Counted from the stretch's first letter, positions 617 through 7,587 are shown. The stretch is 22,387 bases of DNA from a virus (IMGVR_UViG_2698536657_000021:1-22387), one strand, 5' to 3'. The notes: generated by a model not told the origin, from the letters alone. Program-made: numbers and translations.

Positions 617-2599
617 TCATGCCGCGGCATCCGCGTTGTTCACTTCCACCTTCACACTGTCAATAAGCAGCGTATATGTCGCCGCCTTTGATATGCCTGT
701 CAGTTGCAGTTTGTCCGCCGACCCTGATGCCGGAGATTTCACCAGTGTGAACGGCGTACCCCGTTTCTCATCCAGTACCGGCGTCACCTGAATGCTGTTG
801 TTTCCGGCAAACTCAAAAGCCAGTGTGTGCCATCCGTTATCAAAGACCCCGAACGTATCCAGCTTCGCATTCTGCTTCTTGTGGTACATCGCGTTCAGGT
901 TCGTCGCATCCGTCTGCAGGAAGAAGGACATCAGCATGTCGTTGCCTTCCTCTGACAGCGTCACTCCCTCCGGCAGGGACGACAACTGCCAGTAAATACC
1001 CAGGGCAAACTGATTCGGCACCAGTGAGCCAGGCACCTTAAACCGCACGCTCACACGTCCGCCTTTCTTCAGCAACTCTGCTCCCTGCCCGGCTGCATCA
1101 TGCTCCAGAAACCAGATGTGGCTTTCCGGTTTGTTCAGTTGCAGGGCCTTACCACCGGTGGCACCCTCATCACTGACCACAGCCTCAGCGATGTTTTTAT
1201 TAACACTGTCTCCGCTCGCCGGTTTGTGATAATAGCGCCAGCCCTGTGATGCCAGGTCTTCACCGGACGCCAGCAGACTCATCAGGGTTCGGTTACTGAC
1301 CGGAGCTTCCGGCTCTCTCTCCGGGCCTTCACCGGAAGGTCCGGTGGGCTTCACCGTATCAGGCTGTTTTCCGGTAATGAATTCAGCGGTTCTCCCGGCG
1401 TGCAACAGAATCGCCGTTGCCAGACGGTCGGAAATAATCCCACGGCGAGCCCATGAACTGAAATGGCTTGCCCTGTCCACAGATGTCCAGGTCTTCTGGT
1501 CATTACGCCACTTTGAACCGTAATAACCGACGGTTTCCAGGTCCGGGTCTTCTGCCGGGTTATTGGTCTGCACATTCGCACCATTCTCATCCGTCATTAA
1601 CGGTACAAAGAAAATGTTCTGCGACTCCTTACCCTTATACCCTCCGTATACTGATGCATACCCTTCCGCATGACGCTGCTTCCAGAAATACGTTGTGTCC
1701 CCGCAAATCCACGGTACCGCTGATGCGCTGCCTCCTGTGCTCTGTGATGCCTGACCGGCAAGCTCCGTTCTGAACTGATTCACCATCGCACTAAACAGCC
1801 CCGGATGCTGCGCATGCGTCCCCACTGCCGCATCACCTTCTCCCTGCATCCACACCACCGCAAGCAGACGGTTTTTCGGGTTCTTCGCCAGTGCGGCTTT
1901 AGTCCGGCTCACCAAATCCTGATACAGCGGCTTACCCACACCCCAGCGCAGTGAATTTTCCGATGCACCGGCTGATTCGCTGTATGTGCCGTCTGCCCCC
2001 GTTGTGAATGCCGAAGCACCACGGCAGCACGGAACCAGCAGAATGCCCGCATTCGCCGGTATAAACGGCAGCAGTTTTTTGGCGATATGCAGCCCCTGCC
2101 CCACGGTTCCGTACTGCCCCTTTGACAGGTCCGCTTTCGGATGGTTAAGACGGCTCATGTCCTGCACATCATGCAGACAATGGTCCGCCGGAATAATGTC
2201 GTTATACTTACAGGCGGCACCGCCCGGTGTCACCGTACTGCGACGCGCCAGCTGCTTAATACGCGGGTCCGGACGGTCATATGTCTCCGGCAGCGGAAGG
2301 CCTTCACCATACGACATGCCGTTTGACTGCCCTGCCAGAACCACAACAAAGTAATACTCCGGGTCGCTGGTGGCGCTGATTACTGTGCCTTCTCCATCCG
2401 ACGGCTTCACCAACACAGGTGTGGTGACATCACCTTCCGCCGCAATGGCCTGCATCAGGGTATAAGGCGTGATGGCCACCGGGCTGCCAAATGGCTGCCA
2501 CCCCTCCTTCAGTTTTTGAGTCAGTCGCTCTGCAAGGTCTGACGGCGACGCCGCCCTGACCACATCGTAGTGTTTAAATGCCATGGTTCTTTCCACCAT
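617..2599 (-). CDS. nanS: prophage sialate O-acetylesterase NanS-p-like (DUF1737 N-terminal domain plus SGNH/SASA esterase domain)
   Basis: 660-aa track ORF. N-terminus MAFKHYDVVRAASPSDLAERL resembles DUF1737; VVVLAGQSNGMSYGEG is the SGNH-type esterase block I motif. Sits downstream of the phage tRNA cluster as in Stx-phage relatives. Alternative start ATG at 2584 (MAFKHYDV...) has a GGTGGAAAG context. Confidence 0.8.
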   Translation of the reverse strand: MVERTMAFKHYDVVRAASPSDLAERLTQKLKEGWQPFGSPVAITPYTLMQAIAAEGDVTTPVLVKPSDGEGTVISATSDPEYYFVVVLAGQSNGMSYGEGLPLPETYDRPDPRIKQLARRSTVTPGGAACKYNDIIPADHCLHDVQDMSRLNHPKADLSKGQYGTVGQGLHIAKKLLPFIPANAGILLVPCCRGASAFTTGADGTYSESAGASENSLRWGVGKPLYQDLVSRTKAALAKNPKNRLLAVVWMQGEGDAAVGTHAQHPGLFSAMVNQFRTELAGQASQSTGGSASAVPWICGDTTYFWKQRHAEGYASVYGGYKGKESQNIFFVPLMTDENGANVQTNNPAEDPDLETVGYYGSKWRNDQKTWTSVDRASHFSSWARRGIISDRLATAILLHAGRTAEFITGKQPDTVKPTGPSGEGPEREPEAPVSNRTLMSLLASGEDLASQGWRYYHKPASGDSVNKNIAEAVVSDEGATGGKALQLNKPESHIWFLEHDAAGQGAELLKKGGRVSVRFKVPGSLVPNQFALGIYWQLSSLPEGVTLSEEGNDMLMSFFLQTDATNLNAMYHKKQNAKLDTFGVFDNGWHTLAFEFAGNNSIQVTPVLDEKRGTPFTLVKSPASGSADKLQLTGISKAATYTLLIDSVKVEVNNADAAA

Positions 2600-3204: not shown

Positions 3205-3236
3205 ATTCATATAAAAGCCCCTCCGGAGAGGGGCTA
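3205..3236 (-). terminator. GC-rich hairpin terminator, possibly bidirectional
   Basis: 8-bp perfect stem AGCCCCTC (3216-3223) / GAGGGGCT (3228-3235), loop CGGA. The minus strand has TTTTAT after the stem; the plus strand has only AAAG, so termination of the 2846..3181 gene would lack a U-run. Confidence 0.45.
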
Positions 3237-3482
3237 AAGCCGCGTATCTGTATCATCATGCGCATGATGCCGGGTGCCTCCCGGTGAGTTCAGCCCGGTG
3301 CCACCAAACCAGCGCGTTTACTTTCCTGGGTATCAAAGATAACACCTAATGCACCAGTCGCCCCTCCGCTCAGGGGGATTCACCATGCCTGTTTCTTTTA
3401 ACAAACTCCCCGCAAAACAGACAACTGTCAACCGTCTGAATTGTGAGACATTTAAAATTTTCGGGGCATGACTGATACCCGG

Positions 3483-3647
3483 CTAACTACCTGGCATGTC
3501 CTTTTTCACCAAAGGAAAAAGCACCACCACAATACCGACCACCAGCACTCCATCCGCCAGCACCGACATGATCCTGCTGGTGAAATCCACCATCACCACC
3601 AGAAACAGCAGGAGTGCCACAGCGGCCAGACGCAGTTTTACCGTCAC
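3483..3647 (-). CDS. small membrane peptide, 54 aa, two hydrophobic segments, translationally coupled to the upstream TerB-like gene
   Basis: Not in the ORF track (GTG start). GTG at 3647-3645 overlaps the TerB-like stop TGA (3646-3644) as GTGA; SD GGAGA 7 nt upstream; translation VTVKLRLAAVALLLFLVVMVDFTSRIMSVLADGVLVVGIVVVLFPLVKKDMPGS; stop TAG at 3485-3483. Confidence 0.4.
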   Translation of the reverse strand: MTVKLRLAAVALLLFLVVMVDFTSRIMSVLADGVLVVGIVVVLFPLVKKDMPGS

Positions 3648-4075
3648 AGGTGGTTCTCCAGTCGCAGGCCAAGAACACCAGCAATCTCTTCCAGAACCTT
3701 ACGCTCTTCCGGCTCAATTTCACCATCTGCTTCAGCAATAGCCACCGCCACATCCAGCACATCTTCCGCTTCACGCGTATCGTGTTTCACATCTTCAATT
3801 TCACGCAACGCCGCTCGACGACCAATTTTAAAGTTGGTGTCAAGCTGACCTGTGATCGTGGCACTGATGGCATTAATTTCTGACGTAAACGCGGACAACG
3901 CAGGCTGGTTACGTAATACCTGTTCGATCTTCGCTTTCTCTGAAGCCTCACATTCACCATCTGCATAGGCTACCAGGTAGGCAGCATTAATAACCGCCTG
4001 TGCCAGATCGCGTTTCTCAAACTTTTTAATTTCCGTTGCTGCTCTGCGGGTTTTCTTTTTGAAAATACCAAACAT
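3644..4075 (-). CDS. TerB-like (tellurite-resistance TerB domain) protein, 143 aa
   Basis: ATG at 4075-4073 with SD AAGGAA 8 nt upstream (the track's 4147 start is GTG with a poor N-terminal extension). Two-repeat architecture with YADGECEASEKAKIEQVL and AEADGEIEPEERKVLEEIAGVLGL, resembling the TerB ADG-x-E/D repeat fold. Confidence 0.65.
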   Translation of the reverse strand: MFGIFKKKTRRAATEIKKFEKRDLAQAVINAAYLVAYADGECEASEKAKIEQVLRNQPALSAFTSEINAISATITGQLDTNFKIGRRAALREIEDVKHDTREAEDVLDVAVAIAEADGEIEPEERKVLEEIAGVLGLRLENHL

Positions 4076-4204
4076 CGTGACGTTCCTTTGGGTGGGTGAG
4101 CCAACGCCCGGGAGCGATCTGCCCACAGAGAAAGTCACACTGACCACTCCGTAAGCTCACCCCCGAAAGGCTCTGTGGTTGATATGCGCCGGGCGTGGCG
4201 CGGA

Positions 4205-4230
4205 TACAAAAAAGGCCGCCAATAGCGACC
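4205..4230 (-). terminator. intrinsic terminator after the 69-aa ORF
   Basis: On the minus strand: GGUCGC-UAUUG-GCGGCC hairpin (6 bp including one G-U) followed by UUUUUUGUAU. Shares the core GATACAAAAAAGGCC with the terminator at 4802..4827. Confidence 0.5.
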
Positions 4231-4264
4231 TCAGTTACGGGATTATTCTGGGGTTAAACGACTG

Positions 4265-4474
4265 TTACTCCCCCCAGACAAAATCATCACTTCCTGTTCG
4301 ATGCGAGCCATAGTGAACCTCGTACTTATCTCCCGTCTTTCTTGCTTCCGTTTCTGCGTCTTCCTCTGTCGCAAAAACCCCAACAAGATGCCAGGGCGAG
4401 CTTCTTACCACAGCCCAACCTTTAACCCATCCTTTGTTGTCCTTATCTTCCATTAACACTTCAGAAACAAACAT
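4265..4474 (-). CDS. hypothetical small protein, 69 aa
   Basis: ATG at 4474 with SD GGAGA and a 5-nt spacer; track ORF; Trp-rich (MFVSEVLMEDKDNKGWVKGWAVV...). No family recognised. Confidence 0.5.
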   Translation of the reverse strand: MFVSEVLMEDKDNKGWVKGWAVVRSSPWHLVGVFATEEDAETEARKTGDKYEVHYGSHRTGSDDFVWGE

Positions 4475-4526
4475 ATTTATCTCCTTGTGGGTACCCAGAG
4501 ATATTTTATGATTGCTCCCGGTCAGA

Positions 4527-4751
4527 TCAATAAAGTGGCTTCAATTTTGCCTTAATGATCAAATCAGGGTGATTGACGGAATCGTACACCACCTCAATAT
4601 TTTCATCCGTGGCGTCGATAAGATATTCTTTTACATAAGGACCTGTTGATTTTCCATGAAATACATCTTCAACAAGTACACTCTCCCCCTGAACAACACG
4701 AAAACTAACTTCTGTTTCGAACGGACCAATCGTCACCATCAGTTTTTTCAC
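4527..4751 (-). CDS. hypothetical small protein, 74 aa
   Basis: GTG at 4751-4749 preceded by AGGAGG with a 4-nt spacer; track ORF (VKKLMVTIGPFETEVSF...). No family recognised. Confidence 0.5.
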   Translation of the reverse strand: MKKLMVTIGPFETEVSFRVVQGESVLVEDVFHGKSTGPYVKEYLIDATDENIEVVYDSVNHPDLIIKAKLKPLY

Positions 4752-4801
4752 ATAGCCTCCTGATAAGCACTCGATTTATTAGTTAATGGTGTAACGCTGA
4801 T

Positions 4802-4827
4802 ACAAAAAAGGCCCGCAAAAGCGAGCC
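4802..4827 (-). terminator. intrinsic terminator after the tRNA cluster
   Basis: On the minus strand: GGCUCGC-UUUU-GCGGGCC hairpin (7 bp, one mismatch) followed by UUUUUUGUA. Confidence 0.5.
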
Positions 4828-4840
4828 AGAAAAATAAGTA

Positions 4841-4917
4841 TGGCGCGTTGTACTGGATTCGAACCAGTGACCGATTGCTTAGAAGGCAATTGCTCTGTCC
4901 GGCTGAGCTAACAACGC
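4841..4917 (-). tRNA. argO: tRNA-Arg (anticodon UCU)
   Basis: Manual cloverleaf fold of the reverse complement: perfect 7-bp acceptor stem GCGTTGT/ACAACGC, D-stem GCTC/GAGC, anticodon loop CTTCTAA, T-arm ACTGG-TTCGAAT-CCAGT, discriminator G, 3' CCA. Confidence 0.85.
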
Positions 4918-4930
4918 TGAATACCGATAA

Positions 4931-5007
4931 TGGACCGCCATCGAGGACTCGAACCCCGCGCAGCCAGCTTCGAAGGCTGACGCTCTGTCCCGATGAGCTA
5001 ATGGCGG
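4931..5007 (-). tRNA. argN: tRNA-Arg (anticodon UCG)
   Basis: Manual fold: acceptor CCGCCAT/ATGGCGG, D-stem GCTC/GAGC, anticodon loop CTTCGAA, T-loop TTCGAGT, 3' CCA. Confidence 0.8.
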
Positions 5008-5016
5008 TATGTGATA

Positions 5017-5092
5017 TGGTGGCCCTTGCTGGATTTGAACCAGCGACCTGGCGATTATGAGTCGCTCGCTCTCACCACTGAGCTAAAGGGCC
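5017..5092 (-). tRNA. ileZ: tRNA with CAU anticodon, ileX/ileZ-like (lysidine tRNA-Ile2 type), 76 nt
   Basis: Reverse complement GGCCCTTTAGCTCAGTGGTGAGAGCGAGCGACTCATAATCGCCAGGTCGCTGGTTCAAATCCAGCAAGGGCCACCA closely resembles E. coli ileX; anticodon loop CTCATAA. The Ile versus Met call is by that similarity only. Confidence 0.8.
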
Positions 5093-5132: not shown

Positions 5133-6191
5133 TCATCCGTTCTGACTGGCTAAATCCTGAACTTCCCTGACCGTCTGCTCAAAACGTTCAGTCTCCAGCT
5201 CAACGCCAGTTGCACGACGCCCCAGCGCCATCGCTGCTTTGACTGTCGAACCCGACCCCATGAAAAAATCTGCAACCAGGTCCCCCGGACGACTGCTCGC
5301 GCTGATTATCTGCTGCAGCATTTCTGCCGGTTTTTCGCACGGATGTTTCCCGGGATAGTACTGCACCGGTTTATGCGTCCACACATCGGTGTACGGCACC
5401 TGCGCCGTCACGCCAAAATACCGCCGCAGATGCTTATATTCACTCTGCAGTTCCGCATACTGCCGGTTCAGTGAAGTATACGTCTCCAGCAGCTGGTGGT
5501 GGGGCTTTTCCAGTACACCGCGCTGATGCTTCTCTTCTGCCACCCGGGCAAACAGCGACTGTAATTTCAGATAATCGCTTTCGTTCGGTAGCTGCCACTG
5601 ACTGGCACTGAACCAGTGCGACACCATGTTTTTCTTTCCTGTGGCATCCACTATCTGTTTTGCCGTTATCCCCAGGGCAGCACGCGCATCACGAAAGTAA
5701 GCAATCAGCGGAGCCATCACATGCTGTTTCAGTGCCCTGCCCTTCGCCTCATACCCGGCATCTTTCGGACGATACGGCCCCTGATAATGTTCCGCGAACA
5801 GAATGCGCTCTGTGGCGGGGAAATACGCCCGCAGGCTTTCCTTGTTGCACCCGTTCCAGCGTCCGGACGGCTTTGCCCAGATGATATGGTTCAGCACACT
5901 GAAGCGTTCACGCATCATGATTTCAATGTCAGACGCCAGGCGATGACCACAGAACAGGTAAAGACTTCCGGCAGGTTTCAGCACCCGCCAGAACTGCGCA
6001 AGACACTGGTCCAGCCATTTCAGGTAATCCTCATCCCCCGTCCACTGGTTATCCCAGCCCTCGGGCTTCACTTTAAAGTATGGCGGGTCTGTGACTATCA
6101 GATCGACAGAGTTTTCCGGTAAGGTCTGGATAAATTCCAGGCAATCAGCGTTGATTAGCTCACAACTGGATATTTTTACAGTATTAGCCAT
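5133..6191 (-). CDS. DNA methyltransferase, N6-adenine/N4-cytosine family (DPPY then FxGxG motif order), no cognate nuclease nearby
   Basis: 352-aa track ORF, ATG at 6191. Catalytic motif IV DPPY (LIVTDPPYF) near the N-terminus and AdoMet motif I DFFMGSGST near the C-terminus. Confidence 0.85.
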   Translation of the reverse strand: MANTVKISSCELINADCLEFIQTLPENSVDLIVTDPPYFKVKPEGWDNQWTGDEDYLKWLDQCLAQFWRVLKPAGSLYLFCGHRLASDIEIMMRERFSVLNHIIWAKPSGRWNGCNKESLRAYFPATERILFAEHYQGPYRPKDAGYEAKGRALKQHVMAPLIAYFRDARAALGITAKQIVDATGKKNMVSHWFSASQWQLPNESDYLKLQSLFARVAEEKHQRGVLEKPHHQLLETYTSLNRQYAELQSEYKHLRRYFGVTAQVPYTDVWTHKPVQYYPGKHPCEKPAEMLQQIISASSRPGDLVADFFMGSGSTVKAAMALGRRATGVELETERFEQTVREVQDLASQNG

Positions 6192-6330: not shown

Positions 6331-6355
6331 TAAAAAAGCCTTCAGGACTGAAGGC
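6331..6355 (-). terminator. intrinsic terminator overlapping the stop codon of the small HTH gene
   Basis: Perfect 7-bp stem GCCTTCA (6338-6344) / TGAAGGC (6349-6355), loop GGAC; on the minus strand it is followed by UUUUUUAUUUG. Confidence 0.45.
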
Positions 6356-6539
6356 GTCTGTAACAACCGAACTGATAGTCTGCCAGACCCGCCATAACAA
6401 GCTGGGTCAGTATTAACTGACAGCGTTCGCGTGAAAGGTACGTATTCTGCGCAATCTCCCCGACTGTCGCCGGTTCGGTGACGCTTAATTCATTAAACAC
6501 CACTCTGGCGGTTTCGGTCATATCCTGCTGTTTCAGCAT
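6342..6539 (-). CDS. hypothetical small winged-helix/HTH-like protein, 65 aa
   Basis: First ATG in the track ORF 6342..6620 (whose listed start is GTG and would run into the tR' hairpin). Translation MLKQQDMTETARVVFNELSVTEPATVGEIAQNTYLSRERCQLILTQLVMAGLADY...; HTH-like segment GEIAQNTYLSRERCQLILTQL. Confidence 0.4.
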   Translation of the reverse strand: MLKQQDMTETARVVFNELSVTEPATVGEIAQNTYLSRERCQLILTQLVMAGLADYQFGCYRRLQS

Positions 6540-6660
6540 GTCTTTTTCCCTTTTCCGGTTAACGTGACACACCAATAACTCTTGTCGAAAAAGCCAGCAA
6601 GCTGAAAGACCGGTATTCACCGCCGCCAGCGCGTTTACTGTACTGGAGTGATTTCAGTCA

Positions 6661-6685
6661 TAAAAAAACCCGCCTGGCGACGGGT
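6661..6685 (-). terminator. tR'-like terminator of a short pR' leader transcript (lambda 6S RNA analog)
   Basis: On the minus strand: ACCCG...CGGGU hairpin followed by seven U residues, about 60 nt downstream of the putative late promoter just after Q. Confidence 0.5.
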
Positions 6686-6732
6686 GTAAAAAGTCTTCTA
6701 ACGTCAGGCATAAAACGCCCATCGTTAGGGCA

Positions 6733-6765: not shown

Positions 6766-7587
6766 TTACCTGGTTACCTTTTTTAACTGCCTCTCAGCCC
6801 ATGCTTCCTCAATATCAAACTTGCTCACCAGCGCATCATAGAATTTCTTAACTGTTTTTTCCCATGACGCGCGTGTTATCTGGTTTGTCACCTCGCATAT
6901 AGCATTAAATGCCTCTGTTGACGGCAATCTTTCATAGCCACGACCACCACAACGCTGGCAGTCCCTGATAACAGGCATACCCCGTTTTTCAGACTCTTCA
7001 CGATGAATGGCAACACCGCGCCCACGACAATCTTTACAGGCGGTGGAAACCTCCCCCTTTCCGCCACACTCCGGACAGGCAACTTTTACCACCTCCCTGA
7101 CTTTTTTCCATTCCTCCCAGTAAGACGGATACACGCCTTTTGTGCACTTTGCCCACACTGGCGGCTTACCATCCGGATACTGGATCTTGTTTGTAAAAAC
7201 CTCGCTTTCAATAAATTTTTTTCCATGACAACAGGAGCACTGTTTTTTGCTCGCCGCGCTACGGGCATAATCTTCAAACGCATACGAAGCCATAATACGC
7301 ATCACTGCCGGTTTTATTTCTGCCGGGAGTTTTCTTAACGCCGCCACGCAATCACACCGACTGAGTGCATATTCTGTCAGCAATTCTGTTGCCCGTTCTC
7401 TGTCATTCATACTAATGCCCATTTTCCCAAGGAACGCAGAAAACCCCATCTCAGCCCGATTCTGTGTCATGCCCTGCGCGGCCATCACATCAGTGATACT
7501 CAGCGCATCTTTCGACGTTGAGGCCGATGCATCAGTCAGGCCGGGGGATTTTGGGGAGTAGTATTTCGGTAAATCTTCCAGTTTCAT
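6766..7587 (-). CDS. Q: late-gene antiterminator Q (QuuQ/YdfT-like, 273 aa, with CxxCxGxG zinc-finger repeats)
   Basis: Track ORF; ATG at 7587 overlaps the rusA stop as ATGA. Cys motifs CPECGGKG, CKDCRGRG, CQRCGGRG. Synteny DUF968 - rusA - Q - pR'/tR' is typical of lambdoid phages. Confidence 0.8.
   Translation of the reverse strand: MKLEDLPKYYSPKSPGLTDASASTSKDALSITDVMAAQGMTQNRAEMGFSAFLGKMGISMNDRERATELLTEYALSRCDCVAALRKLPAEIKPAVMRIMASYAFEDYARSAASKKQCSCCHGKKFIESEVFTNKIQYPDGKPPVWAKCTKGVYPSYWEEWKKVREVVKVACPECGGKGEVSTACKDCRGRGVAIHREESEKRGMPVIRDCQRCGGRGYERLPSTEAFNAICEVTNQITRASWEKTVKKFYDALVSKFDIEEAWAERQLKKVTR

What the first reader, a model, noticed from the sequence alone, without database searches (positions are those of the whole stretch)
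4205..4827. Two small, strongly translated ORFs of unknown function between matching terminators where Stx-phage relatives carry stxAB
In Stx-converting lambdoid phages the stxA/stxB genes lie directly downstream of the ileZ-argN-argO tRNA genes and upstream of nanS-p. Here the same tRNA trio and nanS-p are present but the slot holds a 74-aa ORF (GTG, AGGAGG SD) and a 69-aa Trp-rich ORF (ATG, GGAGA SD). They are flanked by two terminators sharing the core GATACAAAAAAGGCC (4802..4827 and 4205..4230). I recognise neither protein family. Their position implies Q-dependent late expression like a toxin moron.
Basis: partly seen in the sequence, partly recalled or inferred. Interest (0 to 1): 0.6.

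Follow-up and report, generated by a model that had tools for sequence, protein, structure and literature searches.

The report
Mobile two-gene phage late-operon cassette
The two small genes are real and conserved, and they travel together as a cassette through the late-gene regions of temperate phages of enteric bacteria; their function is untested, but the second protein is a free-standing copy of a small domain that elsewhere sits on bacterial immune effector proteins, so a role in the phage-host arms race fits better than a toxin role.

Summary
On the minus strand, the order is tRNA trio, terminator T1, a 74-aa ORF, a 69-aa ORF, terminator T2. Both ORFs are real genes. Each has a large family, and substitutions are saturated at synonymous sites but constrained at non-synonymous sites.

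The 596-bp unit is an insertion. Phage Evi and roughly 730-820 of 5,426 complete E. coli genomes have the same site empty, 93 have it filled, and Stx2 phages start stxA within about 5-10 bp of the same junction. T1 belongs to the tRNA module. T2 belongs to the cassette.

In 84 of 88 evaluable enterobacterial or viral loci, an ORF74 homolog lies directly upstream of the ORF69 homolog. The pair occupies at least three slots, always between Q and terminase and always co-oriented with the late genes.

ORF74 is a fast-evolving six-strand beta-sandwich with no specific structural relative. ORF69 is a beta-beta-alpha-beta-beta domain ("X") that is not in Pfam and has no solved relative. X occurs free, and it also occurs fused to trypsin-like proteases, TIR domains and an Mrr nuclease, in or beside defence-type gene neighbourhoods.

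The toxin analogy is not supported: there are no signal peptides and no toxin homology. My best guess is a Q-dependent accessory module for phage-host conflict, with ORF69 acting as a competitor or decoy. This is inferred, not shown.

The parts
4841..5092 (-). tRNA trio (ileZ-type CAT, Arg-TCG, Arg-TCT). This is the upstream resident module, not part of the cassette.
   Evidence: ARAGORN and Rfam. The homologous genes are annotated ileZ/argN/argO in a Stx2a phage.
4799..4827 (-). Terminator T1 (stem 4827..4810, T-run, GTATC). It is the resident terminator of the tRNA module.
   Evidence: The same terminator is present in the empty site of phage Evi and before stx2A in a Stx2a phage.
4788..4824 (.). 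Left copy of the 37-nt direct repeat (terminator 3' half plus about 16 nt).
   Evidence: the repeat finder, 81% identity to 4192-4228, spacing 596.
4527..4751 (-). ORF74: a 74-aa, GTG-start, six-strand beta-sandwich protein (phrog_2571).
4475..4526 (-). Spacer with a conserved element. It holds a candidate promoter (TTGATC 4530..4525, TAAAAT 4508..4503), then CTCTGGGTACCCACAAGGAGA (4500..4480), which contains the palindrome GGGTACCC (4496..4489) and the ORF69 Shine-Dalgarno sequence (4486..4481).
4265..4474 (-). ORF69: a 69-aa free-standing 'X' domain with a beta-beta-alpha-beta-beta fold (phrog_4280).
4203..4232 (-). Terminator T2 (stem 4232..4212, T-run, GTATC). It is the cassette's own terminator.
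   Evidence: A terminator directly after the ORF69 homolog is kept in most cassette lineages whatever the slot.
4192..4228 (.). Right copy of the 37-nt direct repeat.
3644..4075 (-). TerB-family gene. It is the downstream resident neighbour and follows the terminator directly in empty sites. It is not part of the cassette.

Best explanation
The 596-bp unit is a mobile accessory cassette (a moron in the broad sense) of the late operon of temperate phages of Enterobacterales. It consists of ORF74, a conserved spacer element, ORF69 and its own terminator.

In this prophage it was inserted at the tRNA terminator. This is the same hotspot that holds stxAB in Stx phages and is empty in most relatives.

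Proposed mechanism (inferred): after induction, Q-modified RNA polymerase starting at pR' reads through T1 and transcribes both genes with the late genes. ORF69 may additionally be made from a weak internal promoter, and its ribosome-binding site lies in a conserved element that could gate its translation. Both products are small soluble cytoplasmic proteins that act together.

ORF69 is a free-standing copy of a roughly 55-residue domain (X). In other bacteria, X is the C-terminal non-catalytic module of trypsin-like protease, TIR and Mrr-nuclease proteins, or is encoded next to such effectors. I therefore propose that X is the regulatory, sensing or targeting module of these immune-type effectors. 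The phage-encoded free X would then compete for whatever X binds, blunting such effectors late in infection (counter-defence by mimicry or sequestration). The fast-evolving beta-sandwich ORF74 would be its partner or specificity factor.

Shown: the insertion, its mobility, the linkage of the pair, purifying selection, the folds and the domain architectures. Inferred: Q-dependence, physical partnership of the two proteins, and the counter-defence role.
For: Insertion and hotspot:
- Phage Evi has tRNA-Arg + one terminator + TerB with nothing between.
- 93 of 5,426 E. coli genomes have the full cassette. Up to 824 have the contiguous empty site.
- Stx2a phages use the same junction.
- Cassette GC is 42%, against 50% for the window.

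Real genes:
- ORF74 has about 100 cluster representatives. ORF69 has 290 at E<=1e-3.
- Between cassette lineages, pS is 0.67-0.92 and pN is 0.17-0.47.

Linkage: an ORF74 homolog lies 40-75 bp upstream, on the same strand, in 84 of 88 evaluable enterobacterial or viral loci.

Mobility within the late operon: there are three slots, all co-oriented with the late genes between Q and terminase.

No promoter before ORF69's upstream partner: the scan found no sigma-70-like site between T1 and ORF74.

Folds:

X architectures and neighbours:
- X is fused to Trypsin_2, TIR_2, Mrr_cat and Imm53.
- TIR-X lies beside Mrr_cat/NA-iREase1 and AAA_13 genes.
- Trypsin-X lies directly after a type I R-M operon, beside a STAND-like ATPase, and beside an integrase plus kinases/PP2C.
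- Free X lies 63 nt after a VRR_NUC protein, and near a TIR + beta-propeller protein.

Supporting context:
- Acb2/Tad1-hairpin genes share the same accessory regions in related phages.
- In phi80, a small Q-dependent gene in the lysis-to-packaging accessory region (atiEcA) is a proven counter-defence factor (PMC11364771).
Against: - There is no functional or expression data of any kind.
- No X-bearing effector was shown to exist in E. coli hosts of this prophage.
- No interaction between ORF74 and ORF69, or between free X and fused X proteins, was tested.
- Each gene also occurs alone. ORF74 paralogs occur without ORF69 directly after Rz in Stx1a/2a/2c phages. ORF69 homologs occur without ORF74 in Pseudomonas, Azotobacter, Ralstonia and Caulobacteraceae.
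- Fusion to effectors is equally compatible with X being an oligomerisation, targeting or cis-inhibitory module.
- Only about a quarter of the listed family members are multidomain, and several of those are fragments or gene-call fusions.
- Many known anti-defence genes are early genes, not late ones.
Confidence: 0.38

Rival explanations
1. A prophage-encoded protection module (superinfection exclusion or a minimal defence system) that benefits the lysogen. ORF69 would be made in the lysogen from the internal promoter and would act as a sensor like the X domain of the fused effectors. ORF74 would be produced only on read-through.
For: - A sigma-70-like site (TTGATC-16-TAAAAT) lies just before ORF69. 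A TAnnAT hexamer plus a palindrome is conserved at that position in all cassette lineages.
- The layout promoter + gene + terminator is the classical moron layout (review PMC8065619).
- X is linked to defence-type effectors.
- Related prophages carry defence genes in the same region, for example SIR2_2 after Q in L018.
Against: - There is no effector-like domain in either protein, and no PADLOC hit.
- The promoter is only a 9/12 consensus match, and the number of such sites in the region is not above chance.
- ORF74, the upstream gene, has no promoter of its own.
- Defence morons such as phi80 taiEcA are typically in the opposite orientation to the late operon. This pair is always co-oriented with it.
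Confidence: 0.2
2. A late-function accessory of the phage itself, such as a modulator of lysis timing, of spanin or endolysin action, or of packaging, with no role in conflict with the host.
For: - In many phages the pair sits directly after Rz and before the small terminase.
- In the Rz-adjacent lineages, ORF74-type genes overlap the Rz stop codon (ATGA), which suggests translational coupling.
- The pair is always in the late operon.
Against: - Here the cassette lies several kb upstream of the lysis genes and between two terminators.
- It is absent from most otherwise similar prophages, so it is dispensable.
- There are no membrane segments or signal sequences.
- A lysis or packaging role does not explain X on TIR, protease and nuclease proteins in non-phage defence neighbourhoods.
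Confidence: 0.12
3. A type II toxin-antitoxin or addiction pair that stabilises the prophage.
For: There are two small adjacent genes that are conserved as a pair and are mobile.
Against: - There is no match to toxin or antitoxin families in Pfam, NCBIfam or PADLOC.
- Neither model contains a DNA-binding fold.
- The genes are 40-75 bp apart rather than overlapping.
- There is no promoter upstream of the first gene.
- Each gene also exists alone.
Confidence: 0.05
4. A secreted virulence or toxin cargo comparable to Stx, as in the first reader's analogy.
For: It occupies the same slot as stxAB. The nearly identical copies are mostly in STEC lineages O26 and O145.
Against: - There are no signal peptides. 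The N-terminus of ORF74 is a confidently modelled beta-strand.
- There is no toxin homology.
- The pair is widespread in insect-associated and environmental phages.
Confidence: 0.03

Closest known systems
stxAB operon of Stx-converting lambdoid phages
   Same: It uses the same insertion hotspot, directly after the ileZ-argN-argO tRNA genes and their terminator and upstream of nanS-p. It lies in the Q-controlled late operon and has two small cistrons.
   Different: There is no sequence or fold relationship and no signal peptides. The products are cytoplasmic. The cassette is not restricted to pathogens. It also moves to other late-operon slots.
Classical lambdoid morons (lambda bor and lom; definition as summarised in PMC8065619)
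   Same: It is extra DNA present in some relatives and absent in others. It lies between conserved genes, has lower GC and ends in its own terminator.
   Different: No promoter is detectable in front of the first gene. It is co-oriented with the late operon and embedded in it, so expression is probably late rather than lysogenic. It has two genes with a conserved internal regulatory element.
phi80 atiEcA, the counter-defence gene of the Tai system (He et al. 2024, PMC11364771)
   Same: It is a small gene in the accessory region of the Q-dependent late operon of a lambdoid phage. In mEp237-type phages the pair occupies the accessory region between the lysis genes and the packaging end, next to a phi80-like ORF.
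   Different: tblastn of ORF74 and ORF69 gave no phi80 hit. No opposite-strand defence partner like taiEcA is present beside the pair in this window.
Effector + C-terminal sensor architectures of bacterial immunity (for example Cap4 and TIR-SAVED of CBASS, fused toxin-antitoxin CapRel) and phage sponges or decoys (Tad1, Acb2). This comparison comes from general knowledge.
   Same: X sits C-terminal to TIR, protease and nuclease modules in the way a sensor or regulatory domain does. A phage-encoded free copy is what a decoy or sponge would look like.

Membership tests
Phage moron (extra transcription unit between conserved phage genes) | Present in some closely related genomes and absent in others, at a precise junction | tested here: met
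   The site is empty in phage Evi and in up to 824 E. coli genomes, filled in 93, and holds stxAB in Stx phages.
Phage moron (extra transcription unit between conserved phage genes) | Nucleotide composition differs from the surrounding phage DNA | tested here: met
   The cassette is 42% GC (ORF74 alone 39%) against 50% for the window.
Phage moron (extra transcription unit between conserved phage genes) | Own terminator | tested here: met
   T2 follows ORF69. A terminator after the ORF69 homolog is kept in most lineages in all slots.
Phage moron (extra transcription unit between conserved phage genes) | Own promoter that allows expression independent of induction | tested here: inconclusive
   No sigma-70-like site lies between T1 and ORF74. 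One 9/12 site lies before ORF69, and the number of sites in the region is not above the shuffled expectation. A -10-like hexamer is conserved in position.
Shiga-toxin-like AB5 or secreted toxin cargo | Signal peptides and homology or fold similarity to toxin subunits | tested here: not met
   There are no family hits. The folds are unrelated to Stx subunits at any meaningful score. The N-termini are not signal-like.
Type II toxin-antitoxin pair | A recognisable toxin or antitoxin family, a DNA-binding antitoxin, and an autoregulated promoter upstream of the pair | tested here: not met
   Pfam, NCBIfam and PADLOC give nothing. The models are all-beta and beta-beta-alpha-beta-beta. There is no upstream promoter.
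Known anti-phage defence systems (PADLOC-DB v2) | Match to a component model | tested here: not met
   Neither protein matches any family at E<=10.
PHROG families phrog_2571 (ORF74) and phrog_4280 (ORF69), both of unknown function | Significant match to the family profile | tested here: met
   E 1.9e-26 for ORF74, covering profile positions 100-171 of 291, and E 2.5e-40 for ORF69, full length.
Pfam DUF7336 | Score at or above the gathering threshold (25 bits) | tested here: not met
   ORF69 scores 15.3 bits, E 0.018, over residues 30-52 only.
Known anti-defence sponges (Acb2/Tad1 family, PF24729) | Sequence match to the family | tested here: not met
   Neither ORF has a Pfam hit. PF24729 genes are only neighbours in related phages.

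The most novel reading that the evidence does not exclude
ORF69 would define an undescribed small domain (X) that serves as the sensing or regulatory module of a set of single-protein immune effectors: trypsin-like protease-X, TIR-X, Mrr-X and X-TM. Temperate phages of Enterobacterales and Pseudomonas would carry free X as a late-expressed decoy that disarms them. In enteric phages X would be paired with a rapidly evolving beta-sandwich partner (ORF74) and controlled by a conserved operator or Shine-Dalgarno-masking element. This would be a new immune-domain family together with its viral counter-measure.
Probability: 0.25. Interest if true: 0.75.

Novelty: new member of a known kind. Interest (0 to 1): 0.5.

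Why it matters
The site after the tRNA genes of lambdoid prophages is where Shiga toxin genes sit. Knowing what else uses this hotspot, and how cargo enters it, bears on how Stx phages arise. Here, entry involved recombination at a duplicated terminator module.

More broadly, the second protein links an uncharacterised phage gene family (at least 290 sequence clusters, no Pfam entry, no solved relative) to the non-catalytic end of TIR, protease and nuclease proteins in defence neighbourhoods. If free X antagonises or mimics those proteins, this gives both a new candidate anti-defence family and a handle on how a group of unstudied single-gene effectors is regulated. The conserved gene pair and its spacer element make this directly testable in E. 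coli.

Tried and rejected
- Family scans: Pfam, NCBIfam and PADLOC scans of both proteins gave nothing usable.
- PDB profile searches: nothing for ORF74. For ORF69 there were only non-significant hits, NDUFS4 (E 0.06) and SPOR/DamX.
- Fold searches:
  - BFVD gave nothing significant for ORF74.
  - afdb50 was not available.
- Literature: searches for locus tags, accessions, PHROG or DUF names and peptide strings found nothing. The Silas et al. accessory-gene preprint does not mention mEp237 or these regions.
- Shine-Dalgarno-masking hairpin in the spacer: each lineage folds (-7 to -12 kcal/mol; window z = -2.05). However, RNAalifold keeps only 3 invariant pairs, and the pair counts are no better than shuffles on most measures. 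I do not claim an RNA structure.
- X as an effector-associated adaptor paired with a STAND NTPase: rejected for lack of a second X copy on the neighbouring ATPase.
- X as a second-messenger sensor: no consistent cyclase neighbour.
- P0171 (integrase + trypsin-X) turned out to be a decayed island or gene-call fusion.
- The search for related loci with the broad alignment failed because there was no conserved stretch. The narrow alignment worked.

Full report
**1. What is in the sequence**

All features lie on the minus strand. Reading 5' to 3', the order is:
- a DUF968 gene, RusA and an Antiterm-family Q gene (7587..6766)
- two terminator-like sites just downstream of Q (6732..6716 and 6685..6668)
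- a 92-aa ORF
- an N6/N4 DNA methyltransferase (6191..5133)
- three tRNA genes (5092..4841)
- terminator T1 (stem 4827..4810)
- ORF74 (4751..4527)
- a 52-nt spacer
- ORF69 (4474..4265)
- terminator T2 (stem 4232..4212)
- a TerB-family gene (4075..3644)
- a DUF3927 gene (3647..3483)
- an Rfam STnc100 sRNA match (3417..3205)
- a 660-aa NanS-p-type esterase with DUF1737 + SASA + DUF6645 (2599..617)

The GTG start of ORF74 is confirmed by the conserved MKKLxVT N-terminus of homologs. Both terminators fold well, at -13.8 and about -12 kcal/mol, each followed by T6.

**2. The 'matching terminators' are the two ends of an insertion**

The shared 15-nt core is part of a 37-nt direct repeat, 81% identical and 596 bp apart (4192-4228 and 4788-4824).

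Phage Evi carries the same tRNA-Arg and a single terminator. The sequence that follows T2 here then runs straight into the TerB gene. That empty arrangement is contiguous in up to 824 of 5,426 complete E. coli genomes. This count may include the filled sites, because BLAST pieces up to 650 bp apart are joined, so about 730 is the safe lower figure. The full cassette is present in 93 genomes, mostly O26:H11, O145:H28 and bovine isolates, where RefSeq annotates it as two hypothetical proteins.

In a Stx2a phage the same argO gene and T1 terminator are followed by ATATCTGCGCC and then the stx2A leader. The stx junction and the junction of this cassette therefore lie within about 5-10 bp of each other.

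T1 belongs to the tRNA module. T2 belongs to the cassette, because a GC-rich hairpin plus T-run directly after the ORF69 homolog is kept in most cassette lineages whatever their location. Cassette GC is 42% against 50% for the window.

**3. Both ORFs are real genes**

ORF74 matches phrog_2571 and ORF69 matches phrog_4280, both of unknown function. Pfam, NCBIfam and PADLOC give nothing. The only trace is a sub-threshold DUF7336 hit for ORF69.

A profile search with five ORF74 relatives returned 102 cluster representatives. All are from Enterobacterales and all are unnamed. A full HMMER profile search with ORF69 relatives returned 290 representatives at E<=1e-3 and 129 at E<=1e-10.

Between cassette lineages, synonymous sites are saturated (pS 0.67-0.92) while non-synonymous differences stay at pN 0.17-0.47. 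In the same pairs, ORF74 is 34-44% identical and ORF69 is 56-71% identical. ORF74 therefore evolves faster.

**4. The two genes travel together inside the late operon**

Every close ORF69 homolog I looked up had an ORF74 homolog directly upstream. This covers mEp237, three Xenorhabdus contigs and three metagenomic phage contigs.

For a systematic test I used 26 genome loci and 80 IMG/VR loci recovered with ORF69 patterns. An ORF74-family HMM hit lies 40-75 bp upstream on the same strand in 84 of the 88 enterobacterial-type loci that have enough upstream sequence. It is found in none of the 16 loci from Pseudomonas, Azotobacter, Stutzerimonas, Ralstonia, Bordetella, Caulobacteraceae and other distant taxa.

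The pair occupies at least three slots:
- tRNAs, then the pair, then TerB (the 90-99% identical group, including a variant behind tRNA-Asn/Gly)
- Rz, then the pair, then small terminase (the mEp237-like group and others)
- Q, then the pair, then tRNA-Phe and holin (Xenorhabdus)

In every case the pair lies between Q and the packaging genes and is co-oriented with them.

ORF74-type genes also occur alone. In Stx1a, Stx2a and Stx2c phages and in H-19B, a 41% identical paralog overlaps the Rz stop codon and has no ORF69 after it. DNA comparison with a paired relative shows a recombination breakpoint inside the gene. In phage YDC107_1 the domain is the C-terminal part of a 198-aa protein.

**5. 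Structures**

Neither protein has a signal peptide or a membrane segment.

**6. The lead on function: the ORF69 domain ('X')**

Most family members are free-standing proteins of 60-80 aa, but 41 of the 150 listed are longer. In these, X is the C-terminal module behind:
- Trypsin_2 protease domains (six clusters by Pfam, plus several fragments carrying the GMSGGP motif, plus the Bordetella petrii protein)
- TIR_2 (two clusters)
- Mrr_cat (one cluster)
- Imm53 (one cluster)

In two clusters X is N-terminal to an acidic linker and hydrophobic tail. The motif GW-x-V-x-R-x(2)-PWH ... YGS-x-R-x-G-[ST]-DDF is kept in both fused and free forms.

The neighbourhoods are of defence-island type:
- TIR-X lies beside Mrr_cat/NA-iREase1 and AAA_13 genes.
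- Trypsin-X lies 14 bp after a type I R-M operon and before more methyltransferases.
- Trypsin-X lies next to a STAND-like ATPase in Bordetella.
- Trypsin-X lies next to an integrase, two protein kinases and a PP2C phosphatase.
- Free X lies 63 nt after a VRR_NUC protein and beside a Gp49/HigB-type gene in Azotobacter.
- Free X lies near a TIR + beta-propeller protein in a Caulobacteraceae MAG.

In related phages the same accessory regions also hold Acb2/Tad1-hairpin genes, and in one case a SIR2 gene.

**7. A conserved element between the two genes**

Synonymous sites are saturated, yet the spacer keeps the following pattern in all paired lineages: a TAnnAT hexamer, 5-8 nt, then CTCYGGGTACCCA(0-3 nt)AAGGAGA, 5-7 nt, then ATG. 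In the window this corresponds to TAAAAT at 4508..4503, the motif at 4500..4480 and the palindrome GGGTACCC at 4496..4489.

One lineage has GGTTAACC instead, a symmetrical double change that keeps the palindrome.

The promoter scan calls TTGATC-16-TAAAAT here, although the number of such sites in the region is not above chance.

CTCY can pair with the GGAG of the ORF69 Shine-Dalgarno sequence. Each lineage folds this way, at -7 to -12 kcal/mol, and the window z-score is -2.05 with 6 of 200 shuffles folding as well. Covariation support is weak, however. RNAalifold keeps three invariant pairs, and the counts are no better than shuffles on most measures.

I therefore report a conserved regulatory motif, either an operator at an internal promoter or a translational gate, without choosing between the two.

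**8. Most likely mechanism**

Shown:
- This is an inserted, mobile two-gene unit under purifying selection, with its own terminator.
- It always lies inside the late operon.

Inferred:
- Q-modified polymerase reads through T1, so both genes are late genes.
- The two proteins work together.
- X is the regulatory, sensing or targeting module of immune-type effectors.
- The free phage copy competes with it, giving counter-defence by mimicry or sequestration.

A small Q-dependent counter-defence gene in the accessory region of the late operon has a documented precedent in phi80 atiEcA (PMC11364771). I give this model a probability of about 0.4. The rivals, in order of decreasing probability, are a protection module for the lysogen, a lysis or packaging accessory, an addiction pair and a secreted toxin.

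**9. Comparison with what is known, and novelty**

The unit meets the presence/absence, composition and terminator criteria of a moron (as summarised in PMC8065619). It does not clearly meet the own-promoter criterion. It is not a member of any toxin, toxin-antitoxin, defence or anti-defence family that I could test.

The sequences themselves are already in databases as hypothetical proteins and as unnamed PHROGs. I found no paper that mentions them.

As far as these tools show, the following are new:
- the obligate pairing in enteric phages
- the movement of the pair between late-operon slots
- the spacer element
- the link of ORF69 to the C-termini of protease, TIR and nuclease proteins

I rate it a new member of a known kind (a phage accessory cassette) with a testable and potentially more novel reading.

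**10. Limits**

- There are no expression, interaction or phenotype data.
- The taxonomy of most X-fusion proteins is unknown, because the library carries no names.
- I did not show that E. coli encodes X-bearing effectors.
- Only the best 150 of the 290 family representatives were inspected.
- The empty-site count is approximate.

Noticed in passing
window 4480..4530 (minus strand); the same element occurs in L004, L019, L021, L073, L076, L085, L099, L113 and others: The ORF74-ORF69 spacer holds a nucleotide motif conserved across lineages whose coding DNA is saturated at synonymous sites: a TAnnAT hexamer, then CTCYGGGTACCCA..AAGGAGA, then ATG. The palindrome GGGTACCC is replaced by GGTTAACC in one lineage. 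It is a candidate operator, internal promoter or Shine-Dalgarno-masking element. Covariation support for an RNA hairpin is weak.
   Followed up: partly
window 3205..3417 (minus strand): A full-length match to Rfam STnc100 sRNA (131.5 bits) lies between the DUF3927 gene and nanS-p. The homologous stretch lies downstream of stxB in a Stx2a phage (L009, about 6490-6560).
   Followed up: no
L003 3001-3225; L007 2501-2725; H-19B L008 2501-2662: Stx1a, Stx2a and Stx2c phages and H-19B carry a solo, Cys-rich ORF74 paralog (41% identity). Its ATG overlaps the Rz stop codon (ATGA), and in several records it is unannotated. Comparison with a paired relative (L073) shows a recombination breakpoint inside the gene and loss of the ORF69 partner.
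   Followed up: partly
L011 10891-11133; L018 7385-7678; L111 (about 1.4 kb upstream of the pair): Genes with the Acb2/Tad1 hairpin domain (PF24729, anti-CBASS/anti-Thoeris sponge family) lie in the same late accessory regions as the pair in Xenorhabdus and metagenomic phages. L018 also carries a 656-aa SIR2_2 gene directly after Q.
   Followed up: no
window 6342..6620 (minus strand): A 92-aa ORF with no Pfam match lies between the tR'-like terminators and the DNA methyltransferase. Its 3' end overlaps a further terminator-like site (6355..6338).
   Followed up: no
L013 9264-9470, also L014 and L015: A conserved 68-aa ORF follows the Mrr_cat-X fusion gene by 10 bp in three independent contigs. 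It has no family match and no similarity to ORF74.
   Followed up: no
L069-L071: The same cassette (90% identical) sits behind a different tRNA pair (Asn, Gly) that ends in a T1-like terminator. The terminator module, rather than a particular tRNA, therefore seems to be the entry point.
   Followed up: partly
window 617..2599 and protein P0026: NanS-p here starts with a DUF1737 domain. One database protein (P0026, 125 aa) fuses DUF1737 to an ORF74-type domain, probably through a deletion that joined neighbouring late-region genes.
   Followed up: no
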